64,000 nt of DNA, taken from sequence record OR896832.1; one strand, given 5' to 3'. The stretch is from Escherichia phage GoldenSnicker. The first letter of the stretch is position 1; every line of letters begins with the position of its first letter. The position numbers and the translations under genes were made by a program. The notes under the pieces are model-generated. The model did not search any database, was not told the origin of the DNA, and saw nothing but the letters and a program-made list of their open reading frames with translations. This document shows positions 1,048-62,772 of the stretch, in pieces.

Positions 1048-3951
1048 ATGGCAGATTTAAGCAGAATCCAATTTAAACGTACTAGCACTAAAGGCCGTCG
1101 ACCTGATGCTGGTACGATGAATCCGGGGGAATTGGCAATCAACCTTGCGGATCAATATCTTCTTACTAAAAATGATTCCGGTGCTATTATCAATTTAAGT
1201 TGTCCTCCGGTTTATGACAGCGATGTTACAATGGCGGGTAAGGTTAAAGGAAATAATTATATTTTAAGTAAAACCGCTAATTATTTTGAAGACCAAACCG
1301 CGCGAGATCTTAATTATTTTGGTGCGTTTCGACCGAATAATGCTGATGGTTGGTCTAACTTGATTCTGAACATTCCTCATCCCAGCGGTAAAGCACACGG
1401 TCGCGGGTTTGAATTTGAATATGGTTCTAGTTCCTCTCAGGTTAAAACCTATGGCTTTGATAAGGATGGTAACAAGAGATTCAGCTTTCGCATGTATCAC
1501 GAAGGTGATAAACCTACTCCCTCAGAATTGAACGTCTATAGCAAACAAGAAATTGACCGTATGTTTGTTAAGAACGTTAAAATGTCCACTCCTTCCGGTG
1601 AAGCAACCCGTGGTTATTTTAAAATTGCATCCGCAATGATCCCGCAGAGTGGTCGGATGGCGTTTCTGCGAATCTATGGTGGGAACGGATTTAATGTTAA
1701 CTCCTACGATCAGGTGGATTTCCTTGAAATTGTGATTCGTAGTGGTAATAATAACCCTAAAGGCGTTAGTATTGCTGCATATCGTCGAAATTCTTTGAAC
1801 GTCCATGAAGTATTTGCAATTAATACTTCCGGTGATAACTATGACATTTATGTTAACTATGGTCGCTTCACCGATAACGTTATTGTAGAGTTTGGAAAAA
1901 CTGTTGATGTTGCATTGACTGTTCACGATGTTCCTGAATTTTCGGCGACTAAACCAGAAACCGGAACTAAATTTGATGCTCGTGTTATTACCATGTTCAA
2001 CACCGAAAACAAAGCAGGAACGTTGATGTTTGATAATAACTCACAAGCAACCTATGATATTGTGAGCCTTAGCAATGCACCTGATAATAGCCGAAATTAT
2101 CTGCGTAAATTCCGTAGCAAAGCGAATGAAACAATATGGCATGAAACTGTTCAAGGTGATGTGTATCGTTTGGCTACTGGTTCCACCGACCAAAAAGAAG
2201 TATTAAAAATTGTTGGTAGTGATGGTTTATTTGTCAATAGACTTCATCTGCAAGGCAATAACGCGATTCGTATGTGGCGTCCTACTGGTTGTAGTAACTA
2301 TTTTGAATATATGGATCAGCGAGACGGGGCTAATAAACGTCAAGGGTGGTTTGGTTTTGGTTCTACAGAAACCAACGATTTTCAATGGTATAGTGACGAA
2401 GGTAAAAACTTTGTTAAGCTAGAAGCAAGTGGTCAAGTATCTTTAAGCGCAGGTGCAACCAAAATTGTATACACTAATGGTCAATATGTAGCTGCCAATT
2501 CTGATGCATACCGTATGATCTTTGGTAATTATGGTGCATTCTGGCGTAATGACGGCACTAAAGTTTATCTTATGTCTACTGCCGAAAATGATAGATTTGG
2601 TGGCTGGAATGCCTATCGTCCATTCATTTATGATTTAACTTCCGGTAACGTTCAATTAGGCGGTGATGGTAACGAAGATGCATTAACGTTAGAAAGTGCT
2701 TCTCGTGCCGCTCGCTTTAGTAATGACGTTTACATTAAGAAAGGGCTTTTGACTTTCGACGCTGGACGATTAGGATCTCGTGATTTCTTTAAAATCAACC
2801 ATTGGGGTGATAGCAATAACGCCCGTGATAACATTTTGCAGTTTGAAGACAGTCAGGGCGCACATTTTACCACTGAACGTGCTATGGGTACTGGTAACAT
2901 AACAGCACGTTTTAAAGGCTTTGTTCGTGTAGAATCTGGCGAAATTGCATTTGATGCTAATCGGGGGTCGCAGTCTCAATTTACCTTACACACATGGGGT
3001 AACGAGCAACGCAAACAGGTTTTTGAATGTAAGGATGCTACAAGTTATCACTGGTATACTGAACGTACTCAGGGTGGCACTGGACCTATTCTGTTCTGTA
3101 TGGCTGGTAGTCTAAACGTTGGTAGCAATATCACAACAACTGGTGCTGATATTACGTTTAAACGCGCTGGCAATAAGCACATCTGGTTTAGAGATCCAGA
3201 CGGTTTAGAGTTGGGCTTGATGTATTGCGATGACGCTGGTGTTATTCGCTTCCGTGGTCAGAAACAAGCCCAGGCGTGGAAATTTGCAGATAAAATGATC
3301 CAGTTGGAATCTGGTACTGTATCTGGTGGCGGTAATGGCCTGATTCGTGGTGAAGTTGCTGGCGGTAGTTGGGCTAGCTGGCGTGACCGTGCTGCTGGCC
3401 TTATGGTTGGGTGTCCTCAATCAACCGATTCCGCTCATAACATCTGGAAAGCTACTCATTGGGGTAAATATCACATCGCAGCAATGGGTGTACACGTTCC
3501 TAGCGGTACTATCGGTAATGCTATAGCTCGCCTAAACGTTCATGACGCCAACTTTGAATTTAGCGCCTCCGGTGACATGTCGGCAGGGCGTAACGGTTCG
3601 TTTAACGATGTTTATATTCGTTCTGATACTCGCCTTAAAATCAATAAGGAAGAGTATAAGGAGAATGCCACCGATAAAGTTAATCGCTTGACGGTATACA
3701 CCTATGACAAGGTTAAATCTTTAACCGACCGTACTGTCATTGCTCATGAAGTTGGTATTATTGCTCAGGATCTTGAAAAAGAATTGCCGGAAGCCGTAAC
3801 AACTTCTAAGATCGGCGATCCTGATAAGCCAGAAGAGATCTTAACAATTTCTAACTCTGCTGTCAACGCTCTTTTAATTAAGGCGTTTCAGGAAATGAGC
3901 GAAGAACTTAAAGCCGTTAAAGCTGAACTAGCGGAACTTAAAAAGAATTAA
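1048..3951 (+). CDS. 37: long tail fiber distal subunit gp37 with C-terminal intramolecular chaperone-like domain
   Basis: 967 aa; N-terminus MADLSRIQFKRTSTKG..GELAINL matches T4 gp37 N-terminus; C-terminal ~110 aa (..VIAHEVGIIAQDLEKELPEAV..ALLIKAFQEM..coiled coil) resembles S74-type auto-cleaving chaperone domains; RBS AAGGA. Confidence 0.88.
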   Translation: MADLSRIQFKRTSTKGRRPDAGTMNPGELAINLADQYLLTKNDSGAIINLSCPPVYDSDVTMAGKVKGNNYILSKTANYFEDQTARDLNYFGAFRPNNADGWSNLILNIPHPSGKAHGRGFEFEYGSSSSQVKTYGFDKDGNKRFSFRMYHEGDKPTPSELNVYSKQEIDRMFVKNVKMSTPSGEATRGYFKIASAMIPQSGRMAFLRIYGGNGFNVNSYDQVDFLEIVIRSGNNNPKGVSIAAYRRNSLNVHEVFAINTSGDNYDIYVNYGRFTDNVIVEFGKTVDVALTVHDVPEFSATKPETGTKFDARVITMFNTENKAGTLMFDNNSQATYDIVSLSNAPDNSRNYLRKFRSKANETIWHETVQGDVYRLATGSTDQKEVLKIVGSDGLFVNRLHLQGNNAIRMWRPTGCSNYFEYMDQRDGANKRQGWFGFGSTETNDFQWYSDEGKNFVKLEASGQVSLSAGATKIVYTNGQYVAANSDAYRMIFGNYGAFWRNDGTKVYLMSTAENDRFGGWNAYRPFIYDLTSGNVQLGGDGNEDALTLESASRAARFSNDVYIKKGLLTFDAGRLGSRDFFKINHWGDSNNARDNILQFEDSQGAHFTTERAMGTGNITARFKGFVRVESGEIAFDANRGSQSQFTLHTWGNEQRKQVFECKDATSYHWYTERTQGGTGPILFCMAGSLNVGSNITTTGADITFKRAGNKHIWFRDPDGLELGLMYCDDAGVIRFRGQKQAQAWKFADKMIQLESGTVSGGGNGLIRGEVAGGSWASWRDRAAGLMVGCPQSTDSAHNIWKATHWGKYHIAAMGVHVPSGTIGNAIARLNVHDANFEFSASGDMSAGRNGSFNDVYIRSDTRLKINKEEYKENATDKVNRLTVYTYDKVKSLTDRTVIAHEVGIIAQDLEKELPEAVTTSKIGDPDKPEEILTISNSAVNALLIKAFQEMSEELKAVKAELAELKKN

Positions 3952-18382: not shown

Positions 18383-18410
18383 ATCATATTAAAAATTGAG
18401 TGATTGTCAA
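18383..18410 (-). promoter_or_regulatory. sigma70-type promoter (TTGACA-16-TATGAT) upstream of gene 39
   Basis: Minus-strand TTGACAATCACTCAATTTTTAATATGAT ~60 nt upstream of gene 39 ATG. Confidence 0.45.
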
Positions 18411-22778: not shown

Positions 22779-23303
22779 TTAGTAGCCGCGTTCTTGACGG
22801 GCGAAGTTTTCAGCATTTTTCAGATAGTACAGAATAAAGAGTTCTTGAGCGTCAATACCCAGCGGGATCATCTTTGACAGAATGAAGTGGATCGCGTCCA
22901 CAAATTCAAATTTCACTTCAAGCTGATCTTCTGGTGACAGTTCAGAGAATTTACGCGCTCGCGCTTCCCCGTGGTTCTTTTTCCACATTTTCCAGATTGC
23001 ACTTGCATCTTTACCATTGGACATTCCACCCAGCGATGTGTAAAGCTCTCGTGTTTCGTCTGCGATAGCGTCATCCATCCGTTGCATCCAATCCAGCATT
23101 TCACCGCAAGTCTCTAGCTTAGTTGGATTTGGGACCCAATCAAATTTTTCGGATAATGCAACCTGCAAACCAGTTTGCATTTCGAGCATCACCTGAAACG
23201 GATCTTTACCTTCTGCAATAGCGTGATGATATGCGGCGATAGCCGCGTTAATATCTTTTTCGTTAACCAGACCAGCACAAGAATTAAATTCTGACATATT
23301 CAC
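22779..23303 (-). CDS. 56: gp56-like dCTP/dNTP pyrophosphatase (MazG-like)
   Basis: 174 aa; acidic E-x-x-E ... E-x-x-x-D helical motifs; immediately downstream of gene 61 as in T4. Confidence 0.6.
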   Translation of the reverse strand: MNMSEFNSCAGLVNEKDINAAIAAYHHAIAEGKDPFQVMLEMQTGLQVALSEKFDWVPNPTKLETCGEMLDWMQRMDDAIADETRELYTSLGGMSNGKDASAIWKMWKKNHGEARARKFSELSPEDQLEVKFEFVDAIHFILSKMIPLGIDAQELFILYYLKNAENFARQERGY

Positions 23304-23311
23304 CTCATTAA

Positions 23312-24340
23312 TTAAAATTTACAATATTTCATAAACCGCATTTTAGCCATCAGACCTTGTACGGTGTTCTCTTTGATGTATTCCATGATCTGGTCGCGTG
23401 TAGCGCCCTCGTCCTGAATCATGGCGTTAACGTCTTTAGAATGCCACGGGCAGCGATCCCACAAAACAATCTTTTCCCCTGCATTGATAAACTTTTCCAG
23501 TCGGTGCATTGTATCGGCAGACCGTGGTTCCGCATCAAGTACAAACACTCGCTGATCAGGGAAAGGAATTTCATCTAATCCCAAAGTACCGCCAGTAATT
23601 GCACACCCGTTATCAATAAACAATGAATCGATCGGACCTTCTAAGAAATACACTGGCCTACTCGGATCGGCGCGTTCAAGACCATAGACCTTACTCGCTA
23701 ACTCATGAGTTTTAATCGTCATATATTTGGTCTTTCCGTAATCCTTTCTCAATGCTCGCCCCTGAATGGATTCTATCTTGTTCTCGCGGTTAAAGATAGG
23801 AATCACTAAACGCGGTTCAGGTTGTGGATTCTTGAAAGTATCAGCCTTAATGTGATTTGCTACCTTTTGCCATTCTCTCGTGAAATACAGAAGATCCCAT
23901 TTATCGTGGGGAATGCAACGATCACTGACATACTTTATTATAGGATGATTAGCCGGAAGAGTATCTAATCTCTCGCAGAAAGGCAATGTTTGCACTTTCT
24001 TAATCTCCGGCTTTTCTACCTTTTTCAGTGGCTTGAACGTGGTGTTCTTGTGGTCGCCTTGTTCCTTCCGTCGTTCCATAAGCCATTCCCTGAATAGGTC
24101 CGGCTTATATTGTTTAAGAAATTCACCTAACGGCTGATTGTAGTTACAGTTGAAACAACCACAACGCAAACTATCCTTATAGGTATAGATACGGAATCGC
24201 GCTTGAGTATGATTTTTCTTTGAGTCACCGCAGATCGGACAACTACAGACCAGCGTAAATGAGCTAGTATGCAACCGTTTAAAATTTCGTTCGCCGTATA
24301 TGGCTTTTTCCGCTATTTCATAATCTGCGTAGTAAATCAT
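23312..24340 (-). CDS. 61: DNA primase gp61
   Basis: 342 aa (same as T4 gp61); N-terminal zinc ribbon CSCPICGD..CGCFNC; toprim-like C-terminal region. Confidence 0.85.
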   Translation of the reverse strand: MIYYADYEIAEKAIYGERNFKRLHTSSFTLVCSCPICGDSKKNHTQARFRIYTYKDSLRCGCFNCNYNQPLGEFLKQYKPDLFREWLMERRKEQGDHKNTTFKPLKKVEKPEIKKVQTLPFCERLDTLPANHPIIKYVSDRCIPHDKWDLLYFTREWQKVANHIKADTFKNPQPEPRLVIPIFNRENKIESIQGRALRKDYGKTKYMTIKTHELASKVYGLERADPSRPVYFLEGPIDSLFIDNGCAITGGTLGLDEIPFPDQRVFVLDAEPRSADTMHRLEKFINAGEKIVLWDRCPWHSKDVNAMIQDEGATRDQIMEYIKENTVQGLMAKMRFMKYCKF

Positions 24341-27749: not shown

Positions 27750-28820
27750 TTATGCTAACATATCTTCGATTTCTTTGTCAACTGCTTCGTCGCTGATCAC
27801 TTGCCCCAGCTTATAATGATCGTTGATTGCTTCGTTAAACTTATCGTTTGTCAGAAGCGGTTTCCAGAACTCAATGCTATTGGTTTCTTTAGCACGGAAC
27901 TTGCGTTCTTCGGTTTCCATCTCTCCGGTCTCAGTATTCAGGATTGAACGAGAATACCAGCCGTTTGACGGTTTCACTACCCAACCTAACTCTACAGCCA
28001 ACTCCAGCAAACCGGAATAAGGATCGATGCCACCGCTAAATGTTACGCTAATCGGGAACTTAGATTTTTCTTTAACGGTTCGTGATTTTTCCGCATTCAG
28101 GATAAAATCATAACCAGTAATTTCGGTTCCTTCTTTCTGCTGACGACGACCAATAATGAAAACTTCATTGGCTGAATACATCGCGCCCGTACCGCCGGAC
28201 ATAACGGTCTTACTAAACATTTCTTGTGTTTCGTAAGTGTGGTTAATAGCGATGCACGGGATATCATTCATAGTCAGATATGGCGTCACCATACGGAACA
28301 AGCCTTTAAGTGCTTTAGCTCGCGTCATATCCTGTGCAGATTTCTCATTAATCGCGTCTTCAACTTCTTTTTTACTTGCTAAGTTACCGATTGAGTCAAT
28401 AAAGATGATCACTTTATCTTCACGGGTAATTTGCTCAAGCTGGTTCATGATTTCAAATTTAAGTTCTTCGATGTTCTTGATTGGAACATGCACCACGCGA
28501 TCAGGGTCTACACCCATAGACTCCAGATATGCGGAAGTAATACCAAACTCAGAATCAAAGAACAAGCACGCCGCATCAGGATTCTGTTTCATGTATGCAC
28601 TAACGCAAGTTAATCCCATGTTTGATTTAAAGTGCTTAGACGGACCAGCAAAGAAAATCAGACCAGATTGAAAGCCTTTTTTAAGATCACCTGAAAACGC
28701 AATATTCAGCATCGGGATCTTAGTGCGAGTATTTGTTTTTTCGTTAAAGAAGCTGGATTTAGACAGTACCGCAGTAGTTTTCAGGGTAGAGTTCTTTTTC
28801 AGTTTTTCCAGTACAGACAT
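27750..28820 (-). CDS. uvsX: UvsX recombinase (RecA/Rad51-like)
   Basis: 356 aa; RecA-fold motifs (..IFFAGPSKHFKSN.., ..VIIFIDSIGNL..); position as T4 uvsX. Confidence 0.88.
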   Translation of the reverse strand: MSVLEKLKKNSTLKTTAVLSKSSFFNEKTNTRTKIPMLNIAFSGDLKKGFQSGLIFFAGPSKHFKSNMGLTCVSAYMKQNPDAACLFFDSEFGITSAYLESMGVDPDRVVHVPIKNIEELKFEIMNQLEQITREDKVIIFIDSIGNLASKKEVEDAINEKSAQDMTRAKALKGLFRMVTPYLTMNDIPCIAINHTYETQEMFSKTVMSGGTGAMYSANEVFIIGRRQQKEGTEITGYDFILNAEKSRTVKEKSKFPISVTFSGGIDPYSGLLELAVELGWVVKPSNGWYSRSILNTETGEMETEERKFRAKETNSIEFWKPLLTNDKFNEAINDHYKLGQVISDEAVDKEIEDMLA

Positions 28821-28831
28821 TATTAATACCT

Positions 28832-29020
28832 CTATTCAGTTAATCCGTAATACTTTAATTGCTTCATTGTTATTCGATCTTTGTAGTGCTCTTGAATTAA
28901 CTTTTTCATCGCATCAACATCGATCGTCACAAATACTTCGTTGCTGTGATTTCCGTGAACTTTCTTGAAATGCTCTATGCCTTCCTCACGTTCACGTTTA
29001 ATCTTTTCAATGTCTCTCAT
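28832..29020 (-). CDS. hypothetical protein (62 aa)
   Basis: Track ORF trimmed to first ATG; only gene between gp43 and uvsX. Confidence 0.45.
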   Translation of the reverse strand: MRDIEKIKREREEGIEHFKKVHGNHSNEVFVTIDVDAMKKLIQEHYKDRITMKQLKYYGLTE

Positions 29021-29064
29021 CGTATATTTCTCACGTTGGCGGGTATCGTCACCCAACACCCGCC

Positions 29065-29092
29065 ATTATACACACTTTATCTTAAATGTCAA
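29065..29092 (-). promoter_or_regulatory. sigma70-type promoter (TTGACA-16-TATAAT) overlapping 3' end of gene 43
   Basis: Minus-strand TTGACATTTAAGATAAAGTGTGTATAAT; -35 lies within last codons of gene 43; followed by GGCGGGT..ACCCGCC stem-loop. Confidence 0.55.
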
Positions 29093-31760
29093 ACAGGTCA
29101 GTCAGAGAAGCAACTTTCTCATATTGCAGCTTTGCAGCCGTGGTAATGTTCTCCAGTGGTTTGACGAAAGTCTTATTAAACAACAAAGGCCAGTCTAACC
29201 ACTTTAACACCTCTGATTCAATTTCTGGTGGAATACGAGTACCGGACAACCAACCAAAACAGATTTCTCCAAACGGATTTCGATCTTTCAGCGGTACAAT
29301 CATAACCTTCTCGCCCTCACGAATCGGATCTAGTCCAAATTTTCGAGCATTACGATTATAACACAATACACTCTTAACCGCATACGGACAACCCTTAATC
29401 GGATACCCGTTTGAATCGCTGTATTTCTGTAGGTTGTTTGCAGATGATACCGCAGCAACATCAAGATAGTCAAGTTTTCTAAATTCTTGCTCAAAAATAC
29501 CGTAGTATTCCTGCAATGACTCTTCCCCTTCCTGCAACATACGGCGAATACATTCTTTCAGTGATTTCTGACATGCTTTAGGGGTGGAGCTACGTTGCGT
29601 TTCCAAGCCCATGATTTTTAGCTTAGGTTCAGCAAAGCGCGTTCCTTCCATATCCCAAACATTAAGAGCATAACGTTTTTTGCCAGTCCAGAATCCACCG
29701 ATACCCGCAGATTTCAACGGAGGACCAGCAATTGCCTCGCGGTCCATAAACATCAAGTGCTCATAGTTGTTCATGTACTCGCATAACTCGCGATATCCCT
29801 TGTCGATAATAGGTTCCATTCGATGTTTACCGAAATTATCAAGGAAGTCAACAAGTTTTTCGGTATCGTCGAAACGGTCTTCCCCGCCAACCTTATCAAC
29901 AACATTGTTAACCAGCACATAAACGGAGTCAGTATCACAATAACGAACATATGCAAAATCGGTTGTTCCGCAAAGCTCGTTTAAGTATTCGTTAATCTTA
30001 CGCTCAATCCACTGAATTGCAAGCTGACCAAACAAGGTGATCGCACTAGCGTTACGGAGATCATAAAAACGGAATTTAGGATTCCCCAACGCACCATAAA
30101 GGGAGTTGATCAAAACTTTACGAGAAAGCTGGTTTGTATTGCACAAGATCGACTCGTCTTTACATTCTTCCAGCAATTTCTCTAAGGCATCTTTACTTAA
30201 TTCAGAAAGCATCGATTTAAACGCTTCATCAAAGTCGTGACGCACTTCAACGCTATAGCTAATGGTCCCCCCATAAACATGATTTTCATCGTGTAGAATC
30301 GCTTTACATAGTTCAGCATTGCGATCACATGCCAACATCATGTTTTTGTACTGCTTACGCTGATCGAATACCTTTTTAATCTCAATCGGTACGATACCAT
30401 GAATATCTTTTCGATACATCCATCCGTTAGGCGAGCAAGAATACTCATCACTCGGACGTGGTGCAGTTTTATTGATATACTCGTGCATCGGTGCAGCATC
30501 AAAAGATCCGGCGATTGTTTCCGGCGAAATATTAACCTGTCGAATAATAGATGGATACAGACTTGTTAAGTCAAAGCTCATCATCCAACGGTAAGCATTA
30601 GGTACTGGCTCTTTTACAAATGCGCCCGGATAAGTCTGCTTAGGCTGTATCTTGTTCTCCGGTACTACTTTACCCTCAGCTTTCAGAGATCCGAAAATAA
30701 TAGCATCCCATACTTTCATCGGGTTATAAACATGGTTAAATTTAATCTTTGCATAGAAACATAGACTATACACAAGATCGATAAATCCACGCTTTTTATC
30801 AATCGCCAGCACACGATCAACGTCGCCGATGTTATAATCGATGTAAAGTTGATGGTTATCATCACGCAATTTCTTTAACGGACCATCATAATCAACCTTA
30901 CCGATTCCTGTCTCATATTCAGCAACATAATCTAATGCATATGTTGGTTGAGTAGTAAAGCTAAATTTCTTGTACAGGTCAATATAATCAAGGCTTTCGA
31001 TCCCCATGATCGTAAATGCTTCACGCTCGTTGCCAAAATCATCCTGTGAGATTCGGGATTTAATCTTACCGCACGGGCTTAGACGGTTAGCGGTTCTACT
31101 TCCGAACTTATTGCTGATACGTTTAATGATATATGGAATATCGAATGTTTCTGTGTTCCAGCCAGTGAAACCAACTGGTCGGTTTTCCTCAAAGAATCGG
31201 ATGTATTCTAACAGCAATTCATCTTCTGTGTCATAGACGTTATAAACAACGCGCTCTACAATATCAGGTCGAAGAATAGACTTGCTTGCTTCCCAGATTT
31301 CACCGTTTTTTCCTTTCAAATCAAATACAAAGAAACGATCATGTACGGAATCATAATGCGTAATTGCATCGATAGGATATTTCGCTTCTTCTGGTTTAGG
31401 AAATTCCGGTGCAGTGACCTCGATATCAACCCATGCTACACGGATTTTATTTCGGTCATATCGAATCTCGCCTTTATATGTATCGGACAGATAGGAGATG
31501 ATAAAATCATCCATCCCTAGTGCCTCCTGCCCCATTTCTCCCATCTTTTTACGCCATTTGTTGGCCTCGTTCATAGATGGGAATTTTTTAGCAATGCAAG
31601 GCTTGCCGTAGATATCTTTATAATTCGTAACCATACCAGGCGCGGCATGATGAAATAAAGTTGGCGTATATTCAACGTAACGCTCTTGTTCTTGTCCAGC
31701 ATCATCAATATAACGCTCGTAGATCTTATCACCCACTCGCTCACATGACAGAAAATACAT
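29082..31760 (-). CDS. 43: DNA polymerase gp43 (family B)
   Basis: 892 aa from ATG preceded by GAAGGAG; exo and pol motifs (..YCDTDS..); position between uvsX and regA. Confidence 0.92.
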   Translation of the reverse strand: MYFLSCERVGDKIYERYIDDAGQEQERYVEYTPTLFHHAAPGMVTNYKDIYGKPCIAKKFPSMNEANKWRKKMGEMGQEALGMDDFIISYLSDTYKGEIRYDRNKIRVAWVDIEVTAPEFPKPEEAKYPIDAITHYDSVHDRFFVFDLKGKNGEIWEASKSILRPDIVERVVYNVYDTEDELLLEYIRFFEENRPVGFTGWNTETFDIPYIIKRISNKFGSRTANRLSPCGKIKSRISQDDFGNEREAFTIMGIESLDYIDLYKKFSFTTQPTYALDYVAEYETGIGKVDYDGPLKKLRDDNHQLYIDYNIGDVDRVLAIDKKRGFIDLVYSLCFYAKIKFNHVYNPMKVWDAIIFGSLKAEGKVVPENKIQPKQTYPGAFVKEPVPNAYRWMMSFDLTSLYPSIIRQVNISPETIAGSFDAAPMHEYINKTAPRPSDEYSCSPNGWMYRKDIHGIVPIEIKKVFDQRKQYKNMMLACDRNAELCKAILHDENHVYGGTISYSVEVRHDFDEAFKSMLSELSKDALEKLLEECKDESILCNTNQLSRKVLINSLYGALGNPKFRFYDLRNASAITLFGQLAIQWIERKINEYLNELCGTTDFAYVRYCDTDSVYVLVNNVVDKVGGEDRFDDTEKLVDFLDNFGKHRMEPIIDKGYRELCEYMNNYEHLMFMDREAIAGPPLKSAGIGGFWTGKKRYALNVWDMEGTRFAEPKLKIMGLETQRSSTPKACQKSLKECIRRMLQEGEESLQEYYGIFEQEFRKLDYLDVAAVSSANNLQKYSDSNGYPIKGCPYAVKSVLCYNRNARKFGLDPIREGEKVMIVPLKDRNPFGEICFGWLSGTRIPPEIESEVLKWLDWPLLFNKTFVKPLENITTAAKLQYEKVASLTDLFDI

Positions 31761-38626: not shown

Positions 38627-39652
38627 CTAACTTTTTGCGCTATTTACTTCGGCTAAAAGTTCATCAGAAATACGCTTGACCGCCGCAAGTTCTTCCGGTT
38701 CTAGGTTTTGTTCTTCCAGATATTCATAGACCATCTGAATAGTGCTTTTAACTTCAATAACACCTGTTTCCTGTGATGCGCTACTCTCCAGTTTATGGAC
38801 CACTTTTAGCTTGTGTACAACGGCCTCTAACGCGCTTTCTAACTTAGTTAACCCATTATCAGCAACCGTTGCAATAAGACGCACACTAAGCCCCTTAAAG
38901 CGTTCTACATCGATTTTATCATCTGACGGGTAAGTGATACGCACATGATAAGTTTTGTCATTCTGGATAAACTCTTTTTTGTGTGTATCGGTATCGAATA
39001 CCCAAAAACCACGCGGATCGTTTTCGTCACCAGCCGTTAGTGTGTATGGTGTACCAATATACGTTACGTTACCGCCATCACTGATAGTATGAAAGTGACC
39101 AGAAAACACTTCACGGTATTTCTTGAGGAAGTCCGCGCTATAACCTTCTGATTTTAGCCCTTTATAGAAATAGTAACCGGACAATTCCCAATGGCCTACA
39201 CAATATTCGCTGAATGAGTTTTGAATAAACTCTAAAATCTCTGATTTATTGTCATCACAAAACCACGGGAACAGATCAAATGATACACCATCAAAGGTAA
39301 CTGTTTCCGGTTTATCAATAACTTTAATACAATCATACTGGCTTAACACTTCACGCGGTGCGTTAGGCTGGATCTTGTTTCGTTTAAACATATCATGGTT
39401 CCCGACCGTGGTATAACAAGTAATATCAGCCTCTTCCAGTAACGGGATGATTTTCGTTCTATTAAAACGCATAGTTGCATGTGTGATTGCTTTTCGGCAA
39501 TCAAACCAGTCCCCTGTCTGAATCCATGTCTTAATATTATGCTCTTTGGAGTATTCAACCGCTTTCTTGATGGTGTCAAGAATATACTCATGCACCCACG
39601 GATCATCGCCACCGATACCAGTATGCAGATCACCTAAAAGCAAAATTTTCAT
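38627..39652 (-). CDS. 47: recombination nuclease subunit gp47 (Mre11/SbcD-like)
   Basis: 341 aa; phosphoesterase motifs (MKILLLGDLH.., ..GNHD.., ..GHFH..); position as T4 gene 47. Confidence 0.88.
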   Translation of the reverse strand: MKILLLGDLHTGIGGDDPWVHEYILDTIKKAVEYSKEHNIKTWIQTGDWFDCRKAITHATMRFNRTKIIPLLEEADITCYTTVGNHDMFKRNKIQPNAPREVLSQYDCIKVIDKPETVTFDGVSFDLFPWFCDDNKSEILEFIQNSFSEYCVGHWELSGYYFYKGLKSEGYSADFLKKYREVFSGHFHTISDGGNVTYIGTPYTLTAGDENDPRGFWVFDTDTHKKEFIQNDKTYHVRITYPSDDKIDVERFKGLSVRLIATVADNGLTKLESALEAVVHKLKVVHKLESSASQETGVIEVKSTIQMVYEYLEEQNLEPEELAAVKRISDELLAEVNSAKS

Positions 39653-39743: not shown

Positions 39744-40031
39744 TTACAGCATACTTAATACCGTTTGCCGTGTACTAATCCACATAGCAGAAAGCAGTTC
39801 TGGCGTGTGTGGCTGTTTGTAGATATCACGTAACTTTCCGATAGCGTAGATATACGCATCACGATTATCATCGATGATAGCTTGTTCAGCCCACCGCTTA
39901 AGGCGTGCAATCTCTCGCGAGTTCTTACGCAAGATCTTTTCCGCTTTCTTAGCGGCTTTAGCCTCTAGTTCTGCTTGTACTTTGTCTACTTCATTCACTG
40001 CAATCTGGTCATGCTGTTCATCGTAAGTCAT
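39744..40031 (-). CDS. hypothetical protein (95 aa)
   Basis: Track ORF. Confidence 0.5.
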   Translation of the reverse strand: MTYDEQHDQIAVNEVDKVQAELEAKAAKKAEKILRKNSREIARLKRWAEQAIIDDNRDAYIYAIGKLRDIYKQPHTPELLSAMWISTRQTVLSML

Positions 40032-40032
40032 G

Positions 40033-40266
40033 TTATTTTCCTTCTGGGATATAGTCGATGATTAAAGAAAATTCATCTTCTGATACATTATAGCTATGTG
40101 AGATTGTACCCGTAAAGACCTCAAGATCCGGTGATTTGATATTGCACGGATCGATAATCACCGGAACGCCGCAATCTCTCAAAAATAATTTGGCGAAATA
40201 CGGCACGAGGTCAGTTTCAAACTCTGCTTCTTCCAGCAAACGGGAAATGTTAATTTTCAATCTCAT
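40033..40266 (-). CDS. hypothetical protein (77 aa)
   Basis: Track ORF overlapping gene 55 stop. Confidence 0.5.
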
Positions 40267-40783
40267 AAAATTGGTCCAGGCTAGGCAATTCCTCGGTCAA
40301 TACATCTTCAACCTTTGGCGCTTTCGGTTTATTGACCGATTCCTCGTAGTTGTTGATTTTATCGTAAATGTCCTGTATGAATGCCTCATCAGCAATCTGG
40401 CACATATCAGCGTCGCGTTCGTCATATACATGATGCACAAAATATTTGTATTTTGCGGCTGTCGCTGTTCTCTCTTTTTTAATGCGCTGTACAAAAGCAT
40501 TAAAGCACGCTTGCGTGATGTAAGCATGAGGATTTTTATACTTTGTCTCGTCAAAATTAATCAAACCCTTGACCGCCGCTTCGATTCCGTCGTCGATCAT
40601 TTCTTCGCGCCATGTTTGACTATAACCAGAAAAGTTAAAACGACGTGATAGATTTTTAGAGATTTGCATAATTGCTAGGCCGATTTGATCGCTCATTGGA
40701 ACTTGCCGACCTTGTGCTGCAATTTGTTGTTTCCAACGGCAAATTTCTTCGTAAAGCTCTTTATTGTTTACATAATCAGACAC
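40250..40783 (-). CDS. 55: late-transcription sigma factor gp55
   Basis: 177 aa (GTG start); ..[58 protein letters not shown].. near-identical to T4 gp55 core. Confidence 0.9.
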
Positions 40784-40823: not shown

Positions 40824-42293
40824 CTATTCCCCATTGCCATTATACTTTCTTTGCTTAGTTATCCACACTCTAACCATCTCTACTGATTCACCGTCAGACG
40901 GATCAAGAGTTTTTCCCTTTTTCTTCATGCGGTACTTAAATCCGTTAAATCTTGCATTCTCTTGCTCGTTAAAGTCGAACATCTTTTTAAATGATTTTCG
41001 CCCTTTACGCTCACCACATTCTAGCGGAATCATTCGGTCTGTTATTACATTGGCATTAGGTAGAAACGTTTTTAGATAATCTACCAACGCCCAATCAGGA
41101 ACATATAGATTAACATTCTCCTTGCTCTCGTTGTCTCTCAGGTTACAACGCAAACATAATTGAAATGCTGGTTCCAGATAATCAGACACATGACGCGCTT
41201 TCAAAAACTCATTTGTCGGGAGATCACAACTATTAGCAAGACCTTTTAAAATATCAATCTCCCATCGTTGAGGGTTAAAGCTGAACATCACAGCAACATT
41301 TTTATGATGAATGTAAGAGTTAAGACCATAAGACCCGTAAGGTATCCGCTCACCAATACCATTTGTACACGCTTCTCGGTCCCGATTCACGGTATAAATG
41401 AAGTCATCGCCACATTCATTTTTAACCATATCAACAAGACGTTCAAAGGTATTGTTTGTTTCTGACTGGTGACGCGACCATCGTTCAGAGTCCGTCATAA
41501 GGATGATATTAACTCTATCTGTATTTTTATACTCTTTGAAATATAGTCTGGATTCTAGCGCACTCGGAACAAAATCGCAATTTGCATAGTATCGTAGATA
41601 CTTCCCACTATATGTATCAAATAGATTTGCACATGCTATCGTAACCTTTTTAAAGTCTCCCCACGTACCGTGTTTGTTATCGTTCAAGAAAACAATTTTC
41701 GACCCATTCTTCCGGTGTCCTTCGTTATGTTTTACCATAACGTTGATTTTCTTCTCTAATAACGCCTCATAAAGCCCTCTAAGAGAAGAATCGATCATAT
41801 CAGTACCATCCTTTGCACTTTCTATCTTTTCTTTGATAGCGGCCTTCTCAGAGTCTTTTAGAACTAAGTTCTGTAGGCATTCCGATTCGTCGGCGATTGG
41901 TTCGCAATGCTTCGTGATAAGTTCAAGATTAGACTTAAACGGATACTCATTAAATTCAACCAGTTGAGGAACTTCATCAATGTAAAGAGCATATTCACCA
42001 AACATTTTTGAACGTTCCATATTAGATAACGCTGTATGTGTAATGAATATCACATCAGCACCGTCTTTAACTGATTGCATTATCGACGCTTGCACTGTCT
42101 TAAGGCTTCTTAGTCTTGTGCTATCAATCAAGACAGCACGACCGCCCATTCTTTTAAACTTATTGTAAGATTGTTCACTTAAAACACGAGATGGCGAAGC
42201 AATAACCGCTTTTTCTTTTGTCTCTAGGACGTGGGAAAGTATAGCATCAGTTTTCCCCGCCGCTGGCAATGCGATTAATGTTTCAATCTTCAT
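40824..42293 (-). CDS. P-loop NTPase of unknown function (489 aa)
   Basis: Walker A LIALPAAGKTD and Walker B-like LYIDEVPQ in N-terminal ~170 aa; ~300-aa C-terminal region without recognisable motifs. Confidence 0.6.
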   Translation of the reverse strand: MKIETLIALPAAGKTDAILSHVLETKEKAVIASPSRVLSEQSYNKFKRMGGRAVLIDSTRLRSLKTVQASIMQSVKDGADVIFITHTALSNMERSKMFGEYALYIDEVPQLVEFNEYPFKSNLELITKHCEPIADESECLQNLVLKDSEKAAIKEKIESAKDGTDMIDSSLRGLYEALLEKKINVMVKHNEGHRKNGSKIVFLNDNKHGTWGDFKKVTIACANLFDTYSGKYLRYYANCDFVPSALESRLYFKEYKNTDRVNIILMTDSERWSRHQSETNNTFERLVDMVKNECGDDFIYTVNRDREACTNGIGERIPYGSYGLNSYIHHKNVAVMFSFNPQRWEIDILKGLANSCDLPTNEFLKARHVSDYLEPAFQLCLRCNLRDNESKENVNLYVPDWALVDYLKTFLPNANVITDRMIPLECGERKGRKSFKKMFDFNEQENARFNGFKYRMKKKGKTLDPSDGESVEMVRVWITKQRKYNGNGE

Positions 42294-43493: not shown

Positions 43494-44318
43494 TTACCAT
43501 CCTCGCTCTTTACCAATCAAAAATTCAACTTCACGACGTTTAATGTCTTCTTGAAGGTCTTTAATCTTCTGGCGATCTTGCATGATTTCATCCATCTTGT
43601 CAAGTGCCGCAATGAAATCATCGAAACGTTCAAAGGTTTTACCTTCATTTGCTTCGCCAAATTTAACCATTGTCAGGCCGTAACGACTACTAAACAGACG
43701 TTTCAACTGTCCAACGATTTTAGAATCAGTGGTTATAACTTCCAATTCTTCTACTTCACGAAAGATTTTTCTATCAGAATCAATAAACCAGCTAGTTCCT
43801 TTATGGTCTCTATCTTCGGTTGCGCTCATTAGAGTATGGTCTTTACCATCAATTTCAATTACATCAATTTGCCCACATGGACTAACATTTTTAACAGTAA
43901 AAGGTCTATAATTTATTGCTCGTGCAATAACATAATTAAGGTTAGATACGTTTTCAGCATAATGGCAGAAGTCGGTCATAGCATTCGCATCTTTCCAAGT
44001 ATAAGTTTTACCAACTTCCCATTTCTGGGGAACTTCTTCAACTTCACGAAAGAATTTTCTATCGAATGGACTAAAGAAATATGTTGCCGTCCAAATGTCT
44101 TTTCCTGTAGCAGTTTTCGCCGTATGATAAACACCGTCTAGCTCTATTGCATCAATCCAACCGTTACCATCGATCTCGATGATGGTAAATGGCTTGTCAC
44201 CAATAGCTGCACTAATATCGCTGTTAAGTGGAGAAAGAACACCTTCTCCGTTAGTAATAAACTCAGTTTTAGCGTTTTCGTCTTTCCAGGTGTAAGTTTT
44301 ACCAATTTCCCATTTCAT
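43494..44318 (-). CDS. hypothetical protein with two tandem copies of the W-E-x-GKTY-x-WKD domain
   Basis: 274 aa; MKWEIGKTYTWKDENAK.. and internal ..QKWEVGKTYTWKDANAM.. repeats, each followed by ..IEIDG..F.REVEE. Confidence 0.6.
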   Translation of the reverse strand: MKWEIGKTYTWKDENAKTEFITNGEGVLSPLNSDISAAIGDKPFTIIEIDGNGWIDAIELDGVYHTAKTATGKDIWTATYFFSPFDRKFFREVEEVPQKWEVGKTYTWKDANAMTDFCHYAENVSNLNYVIARAINYRPFTVKNVSPCGQIDVIEIDGKDHTLMSATEDRDHKGTSWFIDSDRKIFREVEELEVITTDSKIVGQLKRLFSSRYGLTMVKFGEANEGKTFERFDDFIAALDKMDEIMQDRQKIKDLQEDIKRREVEFLIGKERGW

Positions 44319-49153: not shown

Positions 49154-49648
49154 TTATTTTACCAGTTCTGCTAATTCTTTTTCTTTAGCTTCTAGTTCAG
49201 CTTTAAGCTGTTTAATCTCTTGTCGCTTCTTATTAGCGGCTTCCTGCTTACTATTTCGGATAATCTGATCTAGATACAACTCCCAATCCTGAATATTTTT
49301 GATAATGTAACCGTCAACATTAATTGGTCGTAGATTCAGTACAGCTTCCAGTTTAGTTGCAAAAACTTTAATTGCTGGGGTGAAGTATTCATATTCGTTA
49401 TCTTCAAACCAATAACCTAGACTTGCATTCTCAATACGAAGATGAAGTTTAAGATCAAGGTCTTTATCATCGGTATATAGGTCTTTTACACAACCCATAG
49501 AATTAACAACAACTTTAAAACGAATTTTATCTACACCACCAAAAACATCTTCAAGAATATCAGCAATTGAGCTATTAGCGCAAGATTGGTCGCTGAATGC
49601 GTCAAGGTTTTCTTTAGTTACAGTATACCAAACATCTTGTACCCACAT
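49154..49648 (-). CDS. hypothetical protein (164 aa) with C-terminal coiled coil
   Basis: Track ORF; conserved leader GAGAGGATTATATT ATG; downstream of promoter 49679..49706. Confidence 0.55.
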   Translation of the reverse strand: MWVQDVWYTVTKENLDAFSDQSCANSSIADILEDVFGGVDKIRFKVVVNSMGCVKDLYTDDKDLDLKLHLRIENASLGYWFEDNEYEYFTPAIKVFATKLEAVLNLRPINVDGYIIKNIQDWELYLDQIIRNSKQEAANKKRQEIKQLKAELEAKEKELAELVK

Positions 49649-49678: not shown

Positions 49679-49706
49679 ATTATAGCATACTCCCTTCGCA
49701 TGTCAA
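49679..49706 (-). promoter_or_regulatory. sigma70-type promoter (TTGACA-16-TATAAT) with hairpin GGGAGTA-N-TACTCCC
   Basis: Minus-strand TTGACATGCGAAGGGAGTATGCTATAATACTCCC; -35 overlaps upstream stop codon. Confidence 0.65.
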
Positions 49707-52642: not shown

Positions 52643-53455
52643 TCAATCTACGTTAGTTACATAAACTTCTTGTGTATCAGAAGACTTACCACCTGAACGA
52701 TCTAGGCAATAGGTCTTATTCAACAGGACGCAGTTTAAATCATTCCGCTTGATAAAGTCAAGAAGATGATCATTTACCTTTCCCTTATGATGTGTGACAT
52801 TACTGATACCAAACTGAAAACCACGCGCCATAATAGATTCTACCCACTGATAGAATTTAATCTCTTCCTCGTCACTCCAGAACTTATTATATTCCGCAGA
52901 AGTGATAAGGTACGGCGGGTCCAAATAAACGAAATCACCTGGCAAGATCTCGATCTCGTCATAACGACCAGACGTAAAACTGATTCGACCGTCTTTGTTT
53001 TCTTCCTTAAAATTCAGGACACGCTCTACCGCGTTTTCGTTAAAAGTCCGGCGACCAAAATTAGCATTAAATTCGCCCTTCCGGTTATGGCGGTTAAGGT
53101 TGCTAAAACTGTGCTGAATCAACACAAACAGCGATAGCGGATCTGGATTCTCGTTATACTTCTTACGGAATGCCATGTAAGCATCTTTATCATCGCGAGA
53201 CAAACCATTTTCGGCAATAATCCGCTTGATCGTAAAAACCGGATCAGGACACTCGTCAATGGCCTTGTAAGCATCAATTAAGCGGTGATCATAGTCATTA
53301 GCCAGAACATCCCCTTCGACGTACAGAGACACGCTCAAACCGCCACAAAAGGCATCGACAAAGCGGTTATAGTGCTTAGGGAAATATTTACTAACACCGG
53401 GCAATAACTTTTCCTTATTGCCCGTATAGGGAATTAAACCTAATGCTTTCTTCAT
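52643..53455 (-). CDS. dam: DNA adenine methyltransferase Dam (GATC N6-A MTase)
   Basis: 270 aa; AdoMet motif FVDAFCGGLSVSL and catalytic DPPY (GDFVYLDPPYLITSAEYNKFWS) closely match T4 Dam. Confidence 0.88.
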   Translation of the reverse strand: MKKALGLIPYTGNKEKLLPGVSKYFPKHYNRFVDAFCGGLSVSLYVEGDVLANDYDHRLIDAYKAIDECPDPVFTIKRIIAENGLSRDDKDAYMAFRKKYNENPDPLSLFVLIQHSFSNLNRHNRKGEFNANFGRRTFNENAVERVLNFKEENKDGRISFTSGRYDEIEILPGDFVYLDPPYLITSAEYNKFWSDEEEIKFYQWVESIMARGFQFGISNVTHHKGKVNDHLLDFIKRNDLNCVLLNKTYCLDRSGGKSSDTQEVYVTNVD

Positions 53456-62605: not shown

Positions 62606-62772
62606 TTACATTTAGGGCAATGCGGTTCTTTAATATAATACCCGTCTGTCTTTGGAACACTAACAGGAGCGGTTTTTATATTGTATTCCGTGAAACAACG
62701 AAAACAAGTTACGTTTTCCACAGACTGACGTTTCACCCAATAACCGGAATAGAGGTCATTTTTATTTGTCAT
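62578..62772 (-). CDS. small zinc-ribbon-like protein (64 aa)
   Basis: Start at internal ATG after GGTGGTGG; CFRC..CPKCKC motifs. Confidence 0.4.
   Translation of the reverse strand: MTNKNDLYSGYWVKRQSVENVTCFRCFTEYNIKTAPVSVPKTDGYYIKEPHCPKCKCRLYWSHL

What the first reader, a model, noticed from the sequence alone, without database searches (positions are those of the whole stretch)
28821..29081. Cytosine-modification genes absent from their T4-syntenic slots despite a gp56-like pyrophosphatase
In T4, beta-glucosyltransferase and gene 42 (dCMP hydroxymethylase) lie between uvsX and gene 43, and alpha-glucosyltransferase lies between genes 47 and 55. Here the uvsX-43 interval holds only a 62-aa ORF and the 47-55 interval two small ORFs. 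A gp56-like MazG-type pyrophosphatase (22779..23303) is retained. The phage may use unmodified cytosine or a different modification pathway, or these genes lie outside the window.
Basis: partly seen in the sequence, partly recalled or inferred. Interest (0 to 1): 0.55.

Follow-up and report, generated by a model that had tools for sequence, protein, structure and literature searches.

The report
RB49-like phage without cytosine-modification genes
This window comes from an RB49-like (Krischvirus) relative of phage T4 that lacks T4's cytosine-modification genes and has instead lost most common restriction sites from its DNA; this is real, but it is already published for this group of phages.

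Summary
The uvsX-43 interval (28821..29081) holds only an early promoter with a stem-loop and a conserved 62-aa ORF. The 47-55 interval holds only homologues of T4 a-gt.4 and a-gt.5. A full-length gene 56 homologue (49% identical to T4 gp56) is present.

The window is 97-99% identical to Krischvirus phages (RB49, JSE, vB_Eco_SAP). In the complete SAP genome I found no homologue of gp42, alpha-gt, beta-gt, beta-alpha-gt, alc, denB, ndd or arn. Its only thymidylate-synthase-family gene keeps the dUMP-specifying Asn.

The sequence gives independent support for unprotected cytosine. Twenty-four hexamer palindromes (EcoRI, HindIII, BamHI and others) occur 0 times in the window against about 179 expected. 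T4 and 20 other T4-like loci show no such loss.

The absence of these genes with gene 56 retained is already published (Petrov 2010; PMC8056088; PMC12115623; PMC13390438). RB49 and TB34 DNA were shown experimentally to carry canonical cytosine.

gp56 keeps every invariant catalytic residue. It most likely serves as a dUTPase and pool-balancing enzyme. Its substrate preference cannot be read from sequence.

One open puzzle remains. A 2026 paper reports T6-type modified cytosines in SAP with no genes to make them. I judge this more likely a sample problem than a hidden pathway.

The parts
28821..29081 (.). uvsX-43 interval (261 bp), the slot where T4 carries segA, b-gt, 42, imm and imm.1
   Evidence: The flanking genes were identified by tblastn. 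The interval has the same length, with no indels, in SAP, JSE, L008 and L009.
29065..29092 (-). Perfect sigma-70 promoter TTGACA-16-TATAAT. Its -35 box lies in the last codons of gene 43.
   Evidence: It scores 12 of 12 consensus positions. It is one of 32 near-consensus early promoters in the window, all on the minus strand.
29038..29065 (-). G-rich/C-rich 12-bp stem-loop directly after the -10 box. Together with the promoter it matches the published RB49/phi1 PeSL motif (promoter-early stem-loop).
   Evidence: RNA fold gives -22.2 kcal/mol, z = -4.95, and 0 of 200 shuffles fold as well. The PeSL description is in PMC4122927.
28832..29020 (-). 62-aa ORF of unknown function, the only gene in the slot
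   Evidence: It matches phrog_12120 at E 4e-42. It has no Pfam hit. It is intact and 98-100% identical in four Krischvirus relatives. It has no homologue in the T4 regions held or in 24 other T4-like loci.
27750..28820 (-). uvsX recombinase
   Evidence: 63% identical to T4 UvsX, E 2.5e-151.
29082..31760 (-). Gene 43 DNA polymerase
   Evidence: 55% identical to T4 gp43 over 903 aa.
38627..39652 (-). Gene 47 (SbcD-like nuclease subunit)
   Evidence: 57% identical to T4 gp47.
39744..40031 (-). a-gt.4 homologue (95 aa)
   Evidence: tblastn with T4 a-gt.4 gives E 1.8e-12. The ORF is listed.
40033..40266 (-). a-gt.5 homologue (77 aa)
   Evidence: tblastn with T4 a-gt.5 gives E 5.8e-8. The ORF is listed.
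40250..40783 (-). Gene 55 late sigma factor
   Evidence: 61% identical to T4 gp55.
22779..23297 (-). Gene 56 homologue, an all-alpha NTP pyrophosphatase annotated as dCTPase-dUTPase
52643..53455 (-). Dam-type N6-adenine DNA methyltransferase, the only DNA methyltransferase found in the window
   Evidence: It is 47% identical to T4 Dam. It matches Pfam MethyltransfD12 at E 4.6e-30 and NCBIfam TIGR00571 dam at 152 bits against a cut-off of 114.85.

Best explanation
The window is part of the early-gene region of a Krischvirus (RB49-like 'pseudo-T-even'). This lineage does not have the T-even hydroxymethylcytosine system at all.

It has no dCMP hydroxymethylase and no glucosyltransferases. It also lacks the genes that in T4 attack or silence cytosine DNA (alc, denB, ndd) and arn. 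Its virion DNA therefore carries ordinary cytosine, plus Dam-type N6-methyladenine.

Protection from Type II restriction comes from removing recognition sites from the genome, not from modifying bases.

The T4 slots are occupied minimally. The 43-uvsX slot holds one early promoter with a stem-loop (a PeSL-type element) driving a 62-aa ORF of unknown function. The 47-55 slot holds only a-gt.4 and a-gt.5.

Gene 56 is retained because it belongs to the nucleotide-metabolism set shared by nearly all T4-like phages, not to the hmC module. Inferred role: it removes dUTP/dUDP and supplies dUMP to thymidylate synthase. Its action on dCTP must be weak or controlled, because the phage needs dCTP. In T4, dC-DNA growth requires loss of gene 56.

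Shown: gene content, synteny, site loss, and an intact and conserved gp56. Inferred: gp56 substrate preference, and the actual base composition of this particular isolate.
For: Identity:
- The window is 97-99% identical to Krischvirus genomes.
- It has no tRNA genes, as reported for the genus (PMC7552041).

Absence of the pathway:
- T4 gp42, b-gt and a-gt have no hit in the window or in the whole 165,332-bp SAP genome. The one exception is a weak gp42 match to td (E 0.006).
- That td protein keeps the thymidylate-synthase motif GLPFNVASY, where T4 gp42 reads GFRNDYAW at the stretch I matched by eye. It scores as thymidylate synthase in Pfam and NCBIfam.
- alc, denB, ndd, arn, motA and asiA have no credible hit in the window or in SAP; the only match is arn at E 0.029 in SAP, taken as chance. 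cd, denA, frd and pseT are present in SAP outside the window.
- I took 101 ORFs from the 43-uvsX slot of 20 other T4-like loci. These include the 280-aa ORF I take to be beta-alpha-gt and the gp42-like proteins of about 25% identity. Only gp43 fragments matched the window, and only the gp42-like proteins matched td in SAP.
- Pfam and PHROG scans of about 50 larger ORFs found no glycosyltransferase, no second thymidylate-synthase-like protein and no C5-methyltransferase.

Site loss:
- 25 of 64 hexamer palindromes are absent from the window, against 42 of 4032 non-palindromic hexamers (Fisher p = 4e-30).
- The 24 palindromes absent from SAP occur 0 times in the window against 178.8 expected.
- In the T4 regions the same set gives 102 observed against 96.5 expected, and 164 against 166.4. 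Twenty other T4-like loci have observed/expected ratios of about 0.75-1.1.
- GATC is not depleted (363 observed, 357 expected), consistent with the phage's own Dam.

Literature:
- RB49 lacks hmC and is cut by HpaII and NheI (PMC4041780).
- TB34 has canonical cytosine by LC-MS (PMC13390438).
- Gene 42 is absent and gene 56 present in RB49-type phages (PMC2993671 Table 4; PMC8056088; PMC12115623 Table 4).
- Myoviridae coliphages without the hydroxymethylase gene avoid 55.8% of E. coli restriction sites, against 2.4% for those with it (PMC6286503).

gp56:
- It is intact, with all invariant residues present.
- dN/dS is about 0.21 between diverged Krischvirus alleles.
Against: - PMC13390438 reports that Krischvirus SAP, 97-99% identical to this window, contains 5-hmdC and alpha-gentiobiosyl-mdC with no identifiable genes. 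If that is real, the absence of known genes does not prove unmodified DNA.
- The rest of this phage's own genome is not available. The whole-genome claim rests on a close relative.
- The gp56 catalytic and conserved residues do not differ between phages with and without gene 42. The inferred shift away from dCTPase activity therefore has no sequence support.
- Many ORFs in the window have no assigned function.
Confidence: 0.85

Rival explanations
1. Krischvirus phages, this one included, can replace cytosine with hmC and glycosylated hmC through an unrecognised pathway encoded by ORFs of unknown function. gp56 and gp1 would be the recognisable remnants of that pathway.
For: [quoted passage not shown]
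- gp56 is retained and under purifying selection.
- Many window ORFs have no assigned function.
Against: - SAP's reported profile is the same as that of seven T6-like Tequatrovirus phages in the same collection. SAP DNA was also the least digested by BrxU. Both points fit a mixed or mislabelled sample; this is my inference.
- Almost all SAP-versus-TB34 differences are single-base homopolymer indels, C>T changes at CCCGG, or indels at GGTCTA. These look like sequencing artefacts. The window agrees with SAP at the two CCSGG positions that fall inside it (33602 and 53397). The two phages are then effectively identical, yet TB34 has canonical cytosine.
- SAP has no homologue of gp42, a-gt, b-gt or the ORF I take to be beta-alpha-gt.
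- SAP shows the same complete loss of 24 palindromes. That is unexpected for a lineage whose DNA is protected by hypermodification.
- RB49 DNA is cut by cytosine-modification-sensitive enzymes.
Confidence: 0.05
2. Gene 42 and the glucosyltransferase genes exist but lie in the roughly 100 kb of this phage's genome that the window does not cover.
For: Only 64 kb of about 165 kb is visible. T4-like genomes do relocate genes; dam and gene 38 sit at non-T4 positions here.
Against: - The complete genome of SAP, 97-99% identical, has none.
- The literature reports none in any Krischvirus.
- The loss of restriction sites argues the lineage has long been exposed to restriction.
Confidence: 0.02
3. gp56 here is still a dual dCTPase/dUTPase like T4's. 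Its role would be to divert dCTP/dCDP through dCMP deaminase and thymidylate synthase towards dTTP for a 40% G+C genome, not mainly to remove dUTP.
For: - All conserved residues are shared with gp56 of gene-42-bearing phages.
- cd, td and frd are present in SAP.
- The window is 40% G+C. The host is near 51% (my own knowledge).
Against: - From my knowledge of T4 genetics, and from the T4GT7 genotype quoted in PMC12115623, making dC-DNA in T4 requires knocking out gene 56. An equally active dCTPase should therefore starve a dC-DNA phage of dCTP.
- There are no biochemical data for any Krischvirus gp56.
Confidence: 0.3

Closest known systems
Phage RB49 and the genus Krischvirus (phi1, JSE, TB34, SAP, W115, kaaroe)
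   Same: The window is 97-99% identical in nucleotide sequence and has the same gene order. The 261-bp 43-uvsX interval with its 62-aa ORF is the same, a-gt.4 and a-gt.5 lie between 47 and 55, and there are no tRNA genes.
   Different: No record is identical; the best are 98-99%. The window carries its own gene 56 allele, 69% and 57% identical in amino acids to the SAP and JSE alleles. It lacks the homing endonuclease genes that flank genes 56 and 61 in those phages.
T4 dC-DNA mutants such as T4GT7 (42-, 56-, denB deletion, alc-)
   Same: The natural gene content matches what T4 needs to lose in order to grow with cytosine DNA: no 42, no denB, no alc, with denA kept (genotype quoted in PMC12115623).
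   Different: Gene 56 is retained and intact here, whereas it must be inactivated in T4GT7. ndd, arn, motA and asiA are also absent.
T4 gp56 dCTPase-dUTPase (Pfam dUTPase_2; all-alpha NTP pyrophosphatase / MazG superfamily)
   Different: It operates in a phage with no gene 42, so the T4 role of excluding dCTP in favour of hm-dCTP cannot apply. The substrate preference is untested.
PeSL (promoter-early stem-loop) elements of RB49/phi1 (Arbiol 2010; PMC4122927)
   Same: A near-perfect TTGACA-N16-TATAAT promoter followed by a G-run/loop/C-run stem-loop, next to a small lineage-specific ORF in a variable slot.
   Different: I did not compare it with the published PeSL list. Only a few of the 32 near-consensus promoters in the window have an equally strong stem-loop.
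Restriction-site avoidance in coliphage Myoviridae without the hydroxymethylase gene (Rusinov 2018, PMC6286503)
   Same: The contrast is the same: phages without the hydroxymethylase avoid sites and phages with it do not.
   Different: Here the loss is complete for 24 of 64 hexamer palindromes, and I measured it directly on this window and on five Krischvirus loci. That paper's main text does not name RB49.

Membership tests
Krischvirus (RB49-like Straboviridae) | High nucleotide identity and collinearity with genus members | tested here: met
   The window is 97-99% identical to SAP, TB34, W115, RB49 and JSE over the whole window.
Krischvirus (RB49-like Straboviridae) | No tRNA genes, as reported for the genus in PMC7552041 | tested here: met
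   ARAGORN finds none in the 64 kb.
T-even hmC / glucosyl-hmC DNA modification system | dCMP hydroxymethylase (gp42, a thymidylate-synthase-family enzyme with Asp in place of the TS Asn) | tested here: not met
   There is no hit in the window. The only thymidylate-synthase-family gene in the SAP genome keeps Asn (GLPFNVASY) and scores as thymidylate synthase.
T-even hmC / glucosyl-hmC DNA modification system | DNA glucosyltransferases (alpha-gt, beta-gt, beta-alpha-gt) | tested here: not met
   tblastn finds none in the window or in SAP. The larger ORFs give no glycosyltransferase Pfam hit.
T-even hmC / glucosyl-hmC DNA modification system | dCTPase gp56 and dNMP kinase gp1 | tested here: met
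   gp56 is present. gp1 is annotated in SAP outside the window, and I did not check it further. Both are also present in phages without hmC (PMC2993671), so they do not diagnose the system.
T-even hmC / glucosyl-hmC DNA modification system | Functions directed against cytosine DNA (alc, denB) and arn | tested here: not met
   There are no credible hits in the window or in SAP at E <= 0.1. The single arn match, E 0.029, lies on the opposite strand inside a baseplate gene.
T-even hmC / glucosyl-hmC DNA modification system | Modified cytosine in virion DNA | not testable with these tools
   Literature only: RB49 and TB34 are canonical, and SAP is reported as modified.
gp56 / dUTPase_2 (all-alpha NTP pyrophosphatase superfamily) | Profile match above the curated threshold, and full-length homology to T4 gp56 | tested here: met
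   Pfam PF08761 scores 24.8 bits against 22.9. PHROG 173 matches at E 5e-37. Identity to T4 gp56 is 49%.
gp56 / dUTPase_2 (all-alpha NTP pyrophosphatase superfamily) | All-alpha fold related to MazG and dimeric dUTPase | tested here: met
gp56 / dUTPase_2 (all-alpha NTP pyrophosphatase superfamily) | Conserved acidic metal-binding residues | tested here: met
   D80, E81, E84, D124, E127, E131 and D134 are invariant in 60 homologues and present here. They are also kept in the diverged SAP and JSE alleles.
gp56 / dUTPase_2 (all-alpha NTP pyrophosphatase superfamily) | dCTP versus dUTP substrate preference | not testable with these tools
   No residue separates gp56 of phages with gene 42 from those without it.
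PeSL element (RB49/phi1) | Near-perfect sigma-70 early promoter followed by a G(n)-loop-C(n) stem-loop | tested here: met
   The promoter scores 12 of 12. The stem-loop folds at -22.2 kcal/mol, z = -4.95. The motif definition is in PMC4122927.

The most novel reading that the evidence does not exclude
Krischvirus phages encode an unrecognised route to hydroxymethyl- and glycosyl-cytosine DNA, as claimed for vB_Eco_SAP. It would be switched on in some isolates or conditions and would use none of the known thymidylate-synthase-like or glycosyltransferase enzymes. The retained gp56 would be part of that route, and the enzymes would lie among the unassigned ORFs of this early region.
Probability: 0.05. 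Interest if true: 0.85.

Novelty: already known. Interest (0 to 1): 0.2.

Why it matters
As it stands this is a correct re-derivation of a textbook-level difference between T-even and pseudo-T-even phages. It explains three known properties of RB49-type phages: they can be cut by ordinary restriction enzymes, they can be targeted and engineered like unmodified DNA, and they perform generalised transduction.

Two small open questions attach to it:
- What gp56 does in a phage that needs dCTP. This question was also raised in PMC8056088.
- Whether the 2026 report of T6-type modified cytosine in Krischvirus SAP is real.

The complete loss of 24 hexamer palindromes gives a simple sequence-only test that speaks against a long-standing hypermodification in this lineage.

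Tried and rejected
- **Specificity residues in gp56.** I aligned gp56 from 24 of the 25 IMG/VR T4-like loci with the window and T4 proteins, and classed the loci by whether the 43-uvsX slot holds gp42, a distant gp42-like protein, or neither. No position separates the classes. The idea that sequence reveals a dUTPase-only enzyme was dropped.
- **Hidden glycosyltransferase, TS-like or C5-methyltransferase genes.** I scanned about 50 larger ORFs of the window and of SAP with Pfam and PHROGs and found none. SAP's second methyltransferase-like protein has an NPPF motif, the amino-methyltransferase type, and not a C5-cytosine signature.
- **Remnants of the missing genes.** I looked in the 261-bp and 91-bp gaps for leftovers of gp42, b-gt or a-gt and found none.
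- **SAP versus TB34.** I examined the published differences for a causal gene. They are homopolymer indels and motif-bound changes that look technical.
- **Original RB49 paper.** Desplats 2002 could not be retrieved.
- **Exact source genome.** No record is identical to the window.

Full report
**What the window is.**
- A 5-kb probe around the finding is 98-99.3% identical to Escherichia phages of the genus Krischvirus: vB_Eco_SAP, vB_Eco_TB34, kaaroe, W115, RB49 and JSE.
- A 24-kb probe gives the same set at 97-98%.
- Local blastn maps nearly the whole window onto SAP positions 73349..138543 at 97-98%; the first 2 kb is only about 90% identical, and about 500 bp (1943..2451) did not align.
- G+C is about 40%. 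There are no tRNA genes.
- No record is identical to the window, so this is another member of the RB49 group.

**Checking the observation.**
- On the minus strand the order is 43 (29082..31760), a 62-aa ORF (28832..29020), uvsX (27750..28820), then 40, 41 and so on to 61 (23312..24340) and 56 (22779..23297).
- Between 47 (38627..39652) and 55 (40250..40783) lie two ORFs of 95 and 77 aa. They are homologues of T4 a-gt.4 and a-gt.5 (E 1.8e-12 and 5.8e-8).
The order there is uvsX-segA-b-gt-42-imm-imm.1-43 and 47-47.1-a-gt-mobB-a-gt.2-a-gt.3-a-gt.4-a-gt.5-55.
- The 47-55 slot here therefore keeps the two T4 genes next to 55 and lacks a-gt, mobB, a-gt.2, a-gt.3 and 47.1.

**What is in the 261 bp.**
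- There is a perfect sigma-70 promoter, TTGACA-16-TATAAT, at 29092..29065. Its -35 box lies inside the last codons of gene 43.
- It is followed immediately by a 12-bp G-rich/C-rich stem-loop at 29065..29038. The fold energy is -22.2 kcal/mol, z = -4.95, and none of 200 shuffles folds as well.
- This combination is what Arbiol, Comeau and Krisch described in RB49 and phi1 as PeSLs (promoter-early stem-loops), elements associated with variable slots (PMC4122927).
- It is one of 32 near-consensus early promoters in the window, all on the minus strand.
- The 62-aa ORF belongs to phrog_12120, function unknown, and has no Pfam match.
- The ORF is intact with 0-1 amino-acid changes in SAP, JSE and two IMG/VR Krischvirus contigs, and the interval has no indels among them.
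- It has no homologue in the T4 regions I hold or in 24 other T4-like loci.

**Are the missing genes elsewhere?**
- I fetched the whole 165,332-bp SAP genome.
- T4 gp42, b-gt and a-gt give no hit in the window or in SAP. The one exception is a weak gp42 match (E 0.006) to SAP's thymidylate synthase.
- That protein keeps the TS motif GLPFNVASY, where T4 gp42 reads GFRNDYAW at the corresponding stretch by my own reading. It scores as thymidylate synthase in Pfam and NCBIfam.
- alc, denB, ndd, arn, motA and asiA are absent. cd, denA, frd and pseT are present, outside the window.
- To cover the other known T4-like modification genes, I took all 101 ORFs of at least 70 aa upstream of uvsX, a stretch that contains the 43-uvsX slot, in 20 non-Krischvirus loci. 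These include the 280-aa ORF between 42 and uvsX, which I take to be beta-alpha-gt, and the roughly 25%-identical gp42-like proteins found in nine loci.
- Only gp43 C-terminal fragments matched the window. Only the gp42-like proteins matched SAP, and they matched td.
- Pfam and PHROG scans of about 50 larger ORFs of the window and of SAP gave no glycosyltransferase, no second TS-like protein and no C5-cytosine methyltransferase.
- The only DNA methyltransferase in the window is a Dam-type N6-adenine enzyme at 52643..53455.

**Independent evidence from the sequence itself.**
- If cytosines are not globally modified, the genome is exposed to Type II restriction enzymes.
- 25 of the 64 hexamer palindromes are absent from the window. 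They include GAATTC, AAGCTT, GGATCC, TCCGGA, CTGCAG, GGTACC, CCATGG, CCGCGG, CAGCTG and AGTACT.
- Only 42 of 4032 non-palindromic hexamers are absent (Fisher p = 4e-30).
- For the 24 palindromes absent from SAP, the window has 0 occurrences against 178.8 expected from a maximal-order Markov model.
- JSE (1 observed, 84 expected), L008, L009 and L010 (0 against 61, 58 and 16) show the same loss.
- The two T4 regions give 102 against 96.5 and 164 against 166.4.
- All 20 other T4-like loci have ratios near 1. This includes two loci that lack gp42 in the slot.
- GATC is not depleted (363 against 357), consistent with the phage's own Dam. It is depleted in T4 (88 against 273).
- The general contrast is published. 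Myoviridae coliphages without the hydroxymethylase gene avoid 55.8% of E. coli recognition sites, against 2.4% for those with it (PMC6286503).

**What was already known.**
- Petrov et al. 2010 list gene 42 in T-even, JS98, RB69, CC31, Acinetobacter and 44RR-type phages only. They list gene 56 in all but the giant phages (PMC2993671 Table 4).
- PMC8056088 states that the RB43 and RB49 groups lack all enzymes for non-canonical bases yet keep DenA and the dCTPase-dUTPase. It asks how they cope.
- PMC12115623 Table 4 gives Krischvirus as dCTPase+, hmC-, denB-, denA+, ndd-, alc-.
- PMC4041780 shows that RB49 DNA is cut by HpaII and NheI.
- PMC13390438 (2026) shows canonical cytosine in Krischvirus TB34 by LC-MS. 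[quoted passage not shown]
- The finding is therefore a correct rediscovery.

**gp56.**
- The protein matches Pfam dUTPase_2 just above threshold and PHROG 173.
- It has no sequence match in the PDB.
- An AlphaFold2 model built on 60 homologues has pLDDT 95.6 and is all-helical.
- All 27 invariant columns of the family are present.
- I compared gp56 from loci with gp42, with a distant gp42-like protein, and with neither. No residue tracks the presence of gene 42. Sequence gives no evidence for or against a change in substrate preference.
- My inference rests on T4 genetics. T4 strains that make dC-DNA carry mutations in both 42 and 56 (genotype of T4GT7 quoted in PMC12115623). A dC-DNA phage should therefore not tolerate a T4-strength dCTPase.
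- The retained function is then most likely the dUTPase and dUMP-supply role that Petrov et al. call essential.

**The SAP anomaly.**
- PMC13390438 reports that SAP, unlike the 99.96%-identical TB34, contains 5-hmdC and alpha-gentiobiosyl-mdC. The authors call this unexplained.
- Their Table S5 lists the differences between the two genomes. In the SAP sequence these are almost all single-base changes in homopolymer runs, which would frameshift polymerase, UvsX, gp45, gp47, topoisomerase and NrdB.
- The remainder are C>T changes confined to CCCGG/CCGGG and indels at GGTCTA/TAGACC.
- The window keeps CCSGG at the two such positions it covers, 33602 and 53397, and it has intact ORFs.
- These differences look technical, so the two phages are probably the same genotype.
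- SAP's modification profile equals that of seven T6-like phages in the same collection, and SAP DNA was the least cut by BrxU.
- Together with SAP's complete loss of 24 palindromes, I judge a mixed or mislabelled sample more likely than a hidden pathway. This is inference, not proof.

**Verdict.** The 'unmodified cytosine' reading is supported. The feature is already known and of low interest. There is a small residual chance, about 5%, that Krischvirus hides an unknown modification route.

Noticed in passing
whole window; also L001, L008, L009, L010 and SAP (L003-L006): 25 of 64 hexamer palindromes are completely absent from the window, including the EcoRI, HindIII, BamHI, PstI, KpnI, NcoI, SacII, PvuII, ScaI and BspEI sites. 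For the 24 absent from SAP the count is 0 against about 179 expected. The loss is shared by the five other Krischvirus-type sequences tested (SAP, JSE, L008, L009, and L010, a short contig whose gp56 allele is SAP-like) and is absent from T4 and 20 other T4-like loci. GATC is not depleted here but is in T4.
   Followed up: yes
22779-23297 (gene 56), compared with SAP L004:46156-46674 and JSE L001:7783-8301: Gene 56 is a sharply bounded patch of divergence within the genus. Nucleotide identity to SAP drops to 67-86% across the ORF while both flanks are 99-100%. Amino-acid identity is 69% (window/SAP), 57% (window/JSE) and 59% (SAP/JSE), with dN/dS about 0.21 and the catalytic residues kept. SAP and JSE have homing endonuclease genes next to 56, and the window has none. 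T4 has segF next to 56. This may be allele replacement driven by homing endonucleases.
   Followed up: partly
29038-29092 (-): A perfect TTGACA-16-TATAAT promoter overlaps the end of gene 43 and is followed by a 12-bp GC stem-loop (-22.2 kcal/mol). This matches the published PeSL motif of RB49/phi1. The window has 32 near-consensus promoters, all on the minus strand, and a few have similar stem-loops, for example at 18410, 22771 and 33847.
   Followed up: partly
SAP versus TB34 (PMC13390438 Table S5), checked on L003-L006: Most of the roughly 60 published differences between the 'modified' SAP and the 'unmodified' TB34 are single-base changes in homopolymer runs. All 14 substitutions sit at CCCGG/CCGGG, and seven or eight changes (insertions and one complex variant) sit at GGTCTA/TAGACC or AGAC/GTCT. 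This pattern is typical of sequencing or basecalling artefacts, possibly at methylated motifs.
   Followed up: partly
L003:39772-40290 (-) (SAP, outside the window): A 172-aa protein with a GmrSD_N (DUF262) domain, E 4.8e-20. This is the N-terminal domain of Type IV enzymes that cut glucosyl-hmC DNA. In a phage with cytosine DNA it could act against competing T-even phages.
   Followed up: no
L004:10691-11923 (-) (SAP td, outside the window): The thymidylate synthase is 410 aa, with an insertion of about 120-140 aa between the two halves of the TS domain. The NCBIfam match is split in two, with its best-scoring stretch covering residues 254-410. The active-site Asn motif is kept.
   Followed up: partly
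L006:12388-13227 (+) (SAP, outside the window): A 279-aa methyltransferase-like protein with an NPPF motif lies among the baseplate genes. It gives weak MTS, Eco57I and N6_Mtase matches. This may be the 'DNA-cytosine methyltransferase' that PMC8056088 mentions for the RB49 group. Its target is unknown.
   Followed up: partly
58086-58865 (-): A T2-type gp38 tail-fibre adhesin gene (Pfam GP38, E 6e-73) lies on the minus strand among early genes, about 54 kb from the tail-fibre genes at the start of the window.
   Followed up: no
40824-42293 (-): A 489-aa protein next to gene 55 has a weak DEAD-box/P-loop match and belongs to phrog_2467, function unknown. It occupies the place of T4 55.1-55.x.
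   Followed up: no
43494-44318, 49154-49648 and 49703-50881 (-): Three proteins share PHROG families (3710 in all three; 5347 and 622 in the first and third), and the first and third also match goF-like families. They appear to be a small paralogous family in the nrd region.
   Followed up: no
62762-63217 (-) in the window; L005:48634-49098 (-) in SAP: The window encodes a macro-domain protein of 151 aa. SAP, outside the window, encodes an Acb1 (anti-CBASS) homologue at E 1.5e-51. Both are likely counter-defence genes.
   Followed up: no
L022 and L029 (IMG/VR T4-like contigs): Two non-Krischvirus loci have uvsX-imm-43 with no gp42-like gene in the slot, yet show no palindrome loss. Their gp56 is 68-80% identical to T4's. 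They may make modified bases with genes located elsewhere.
   Followed up: no
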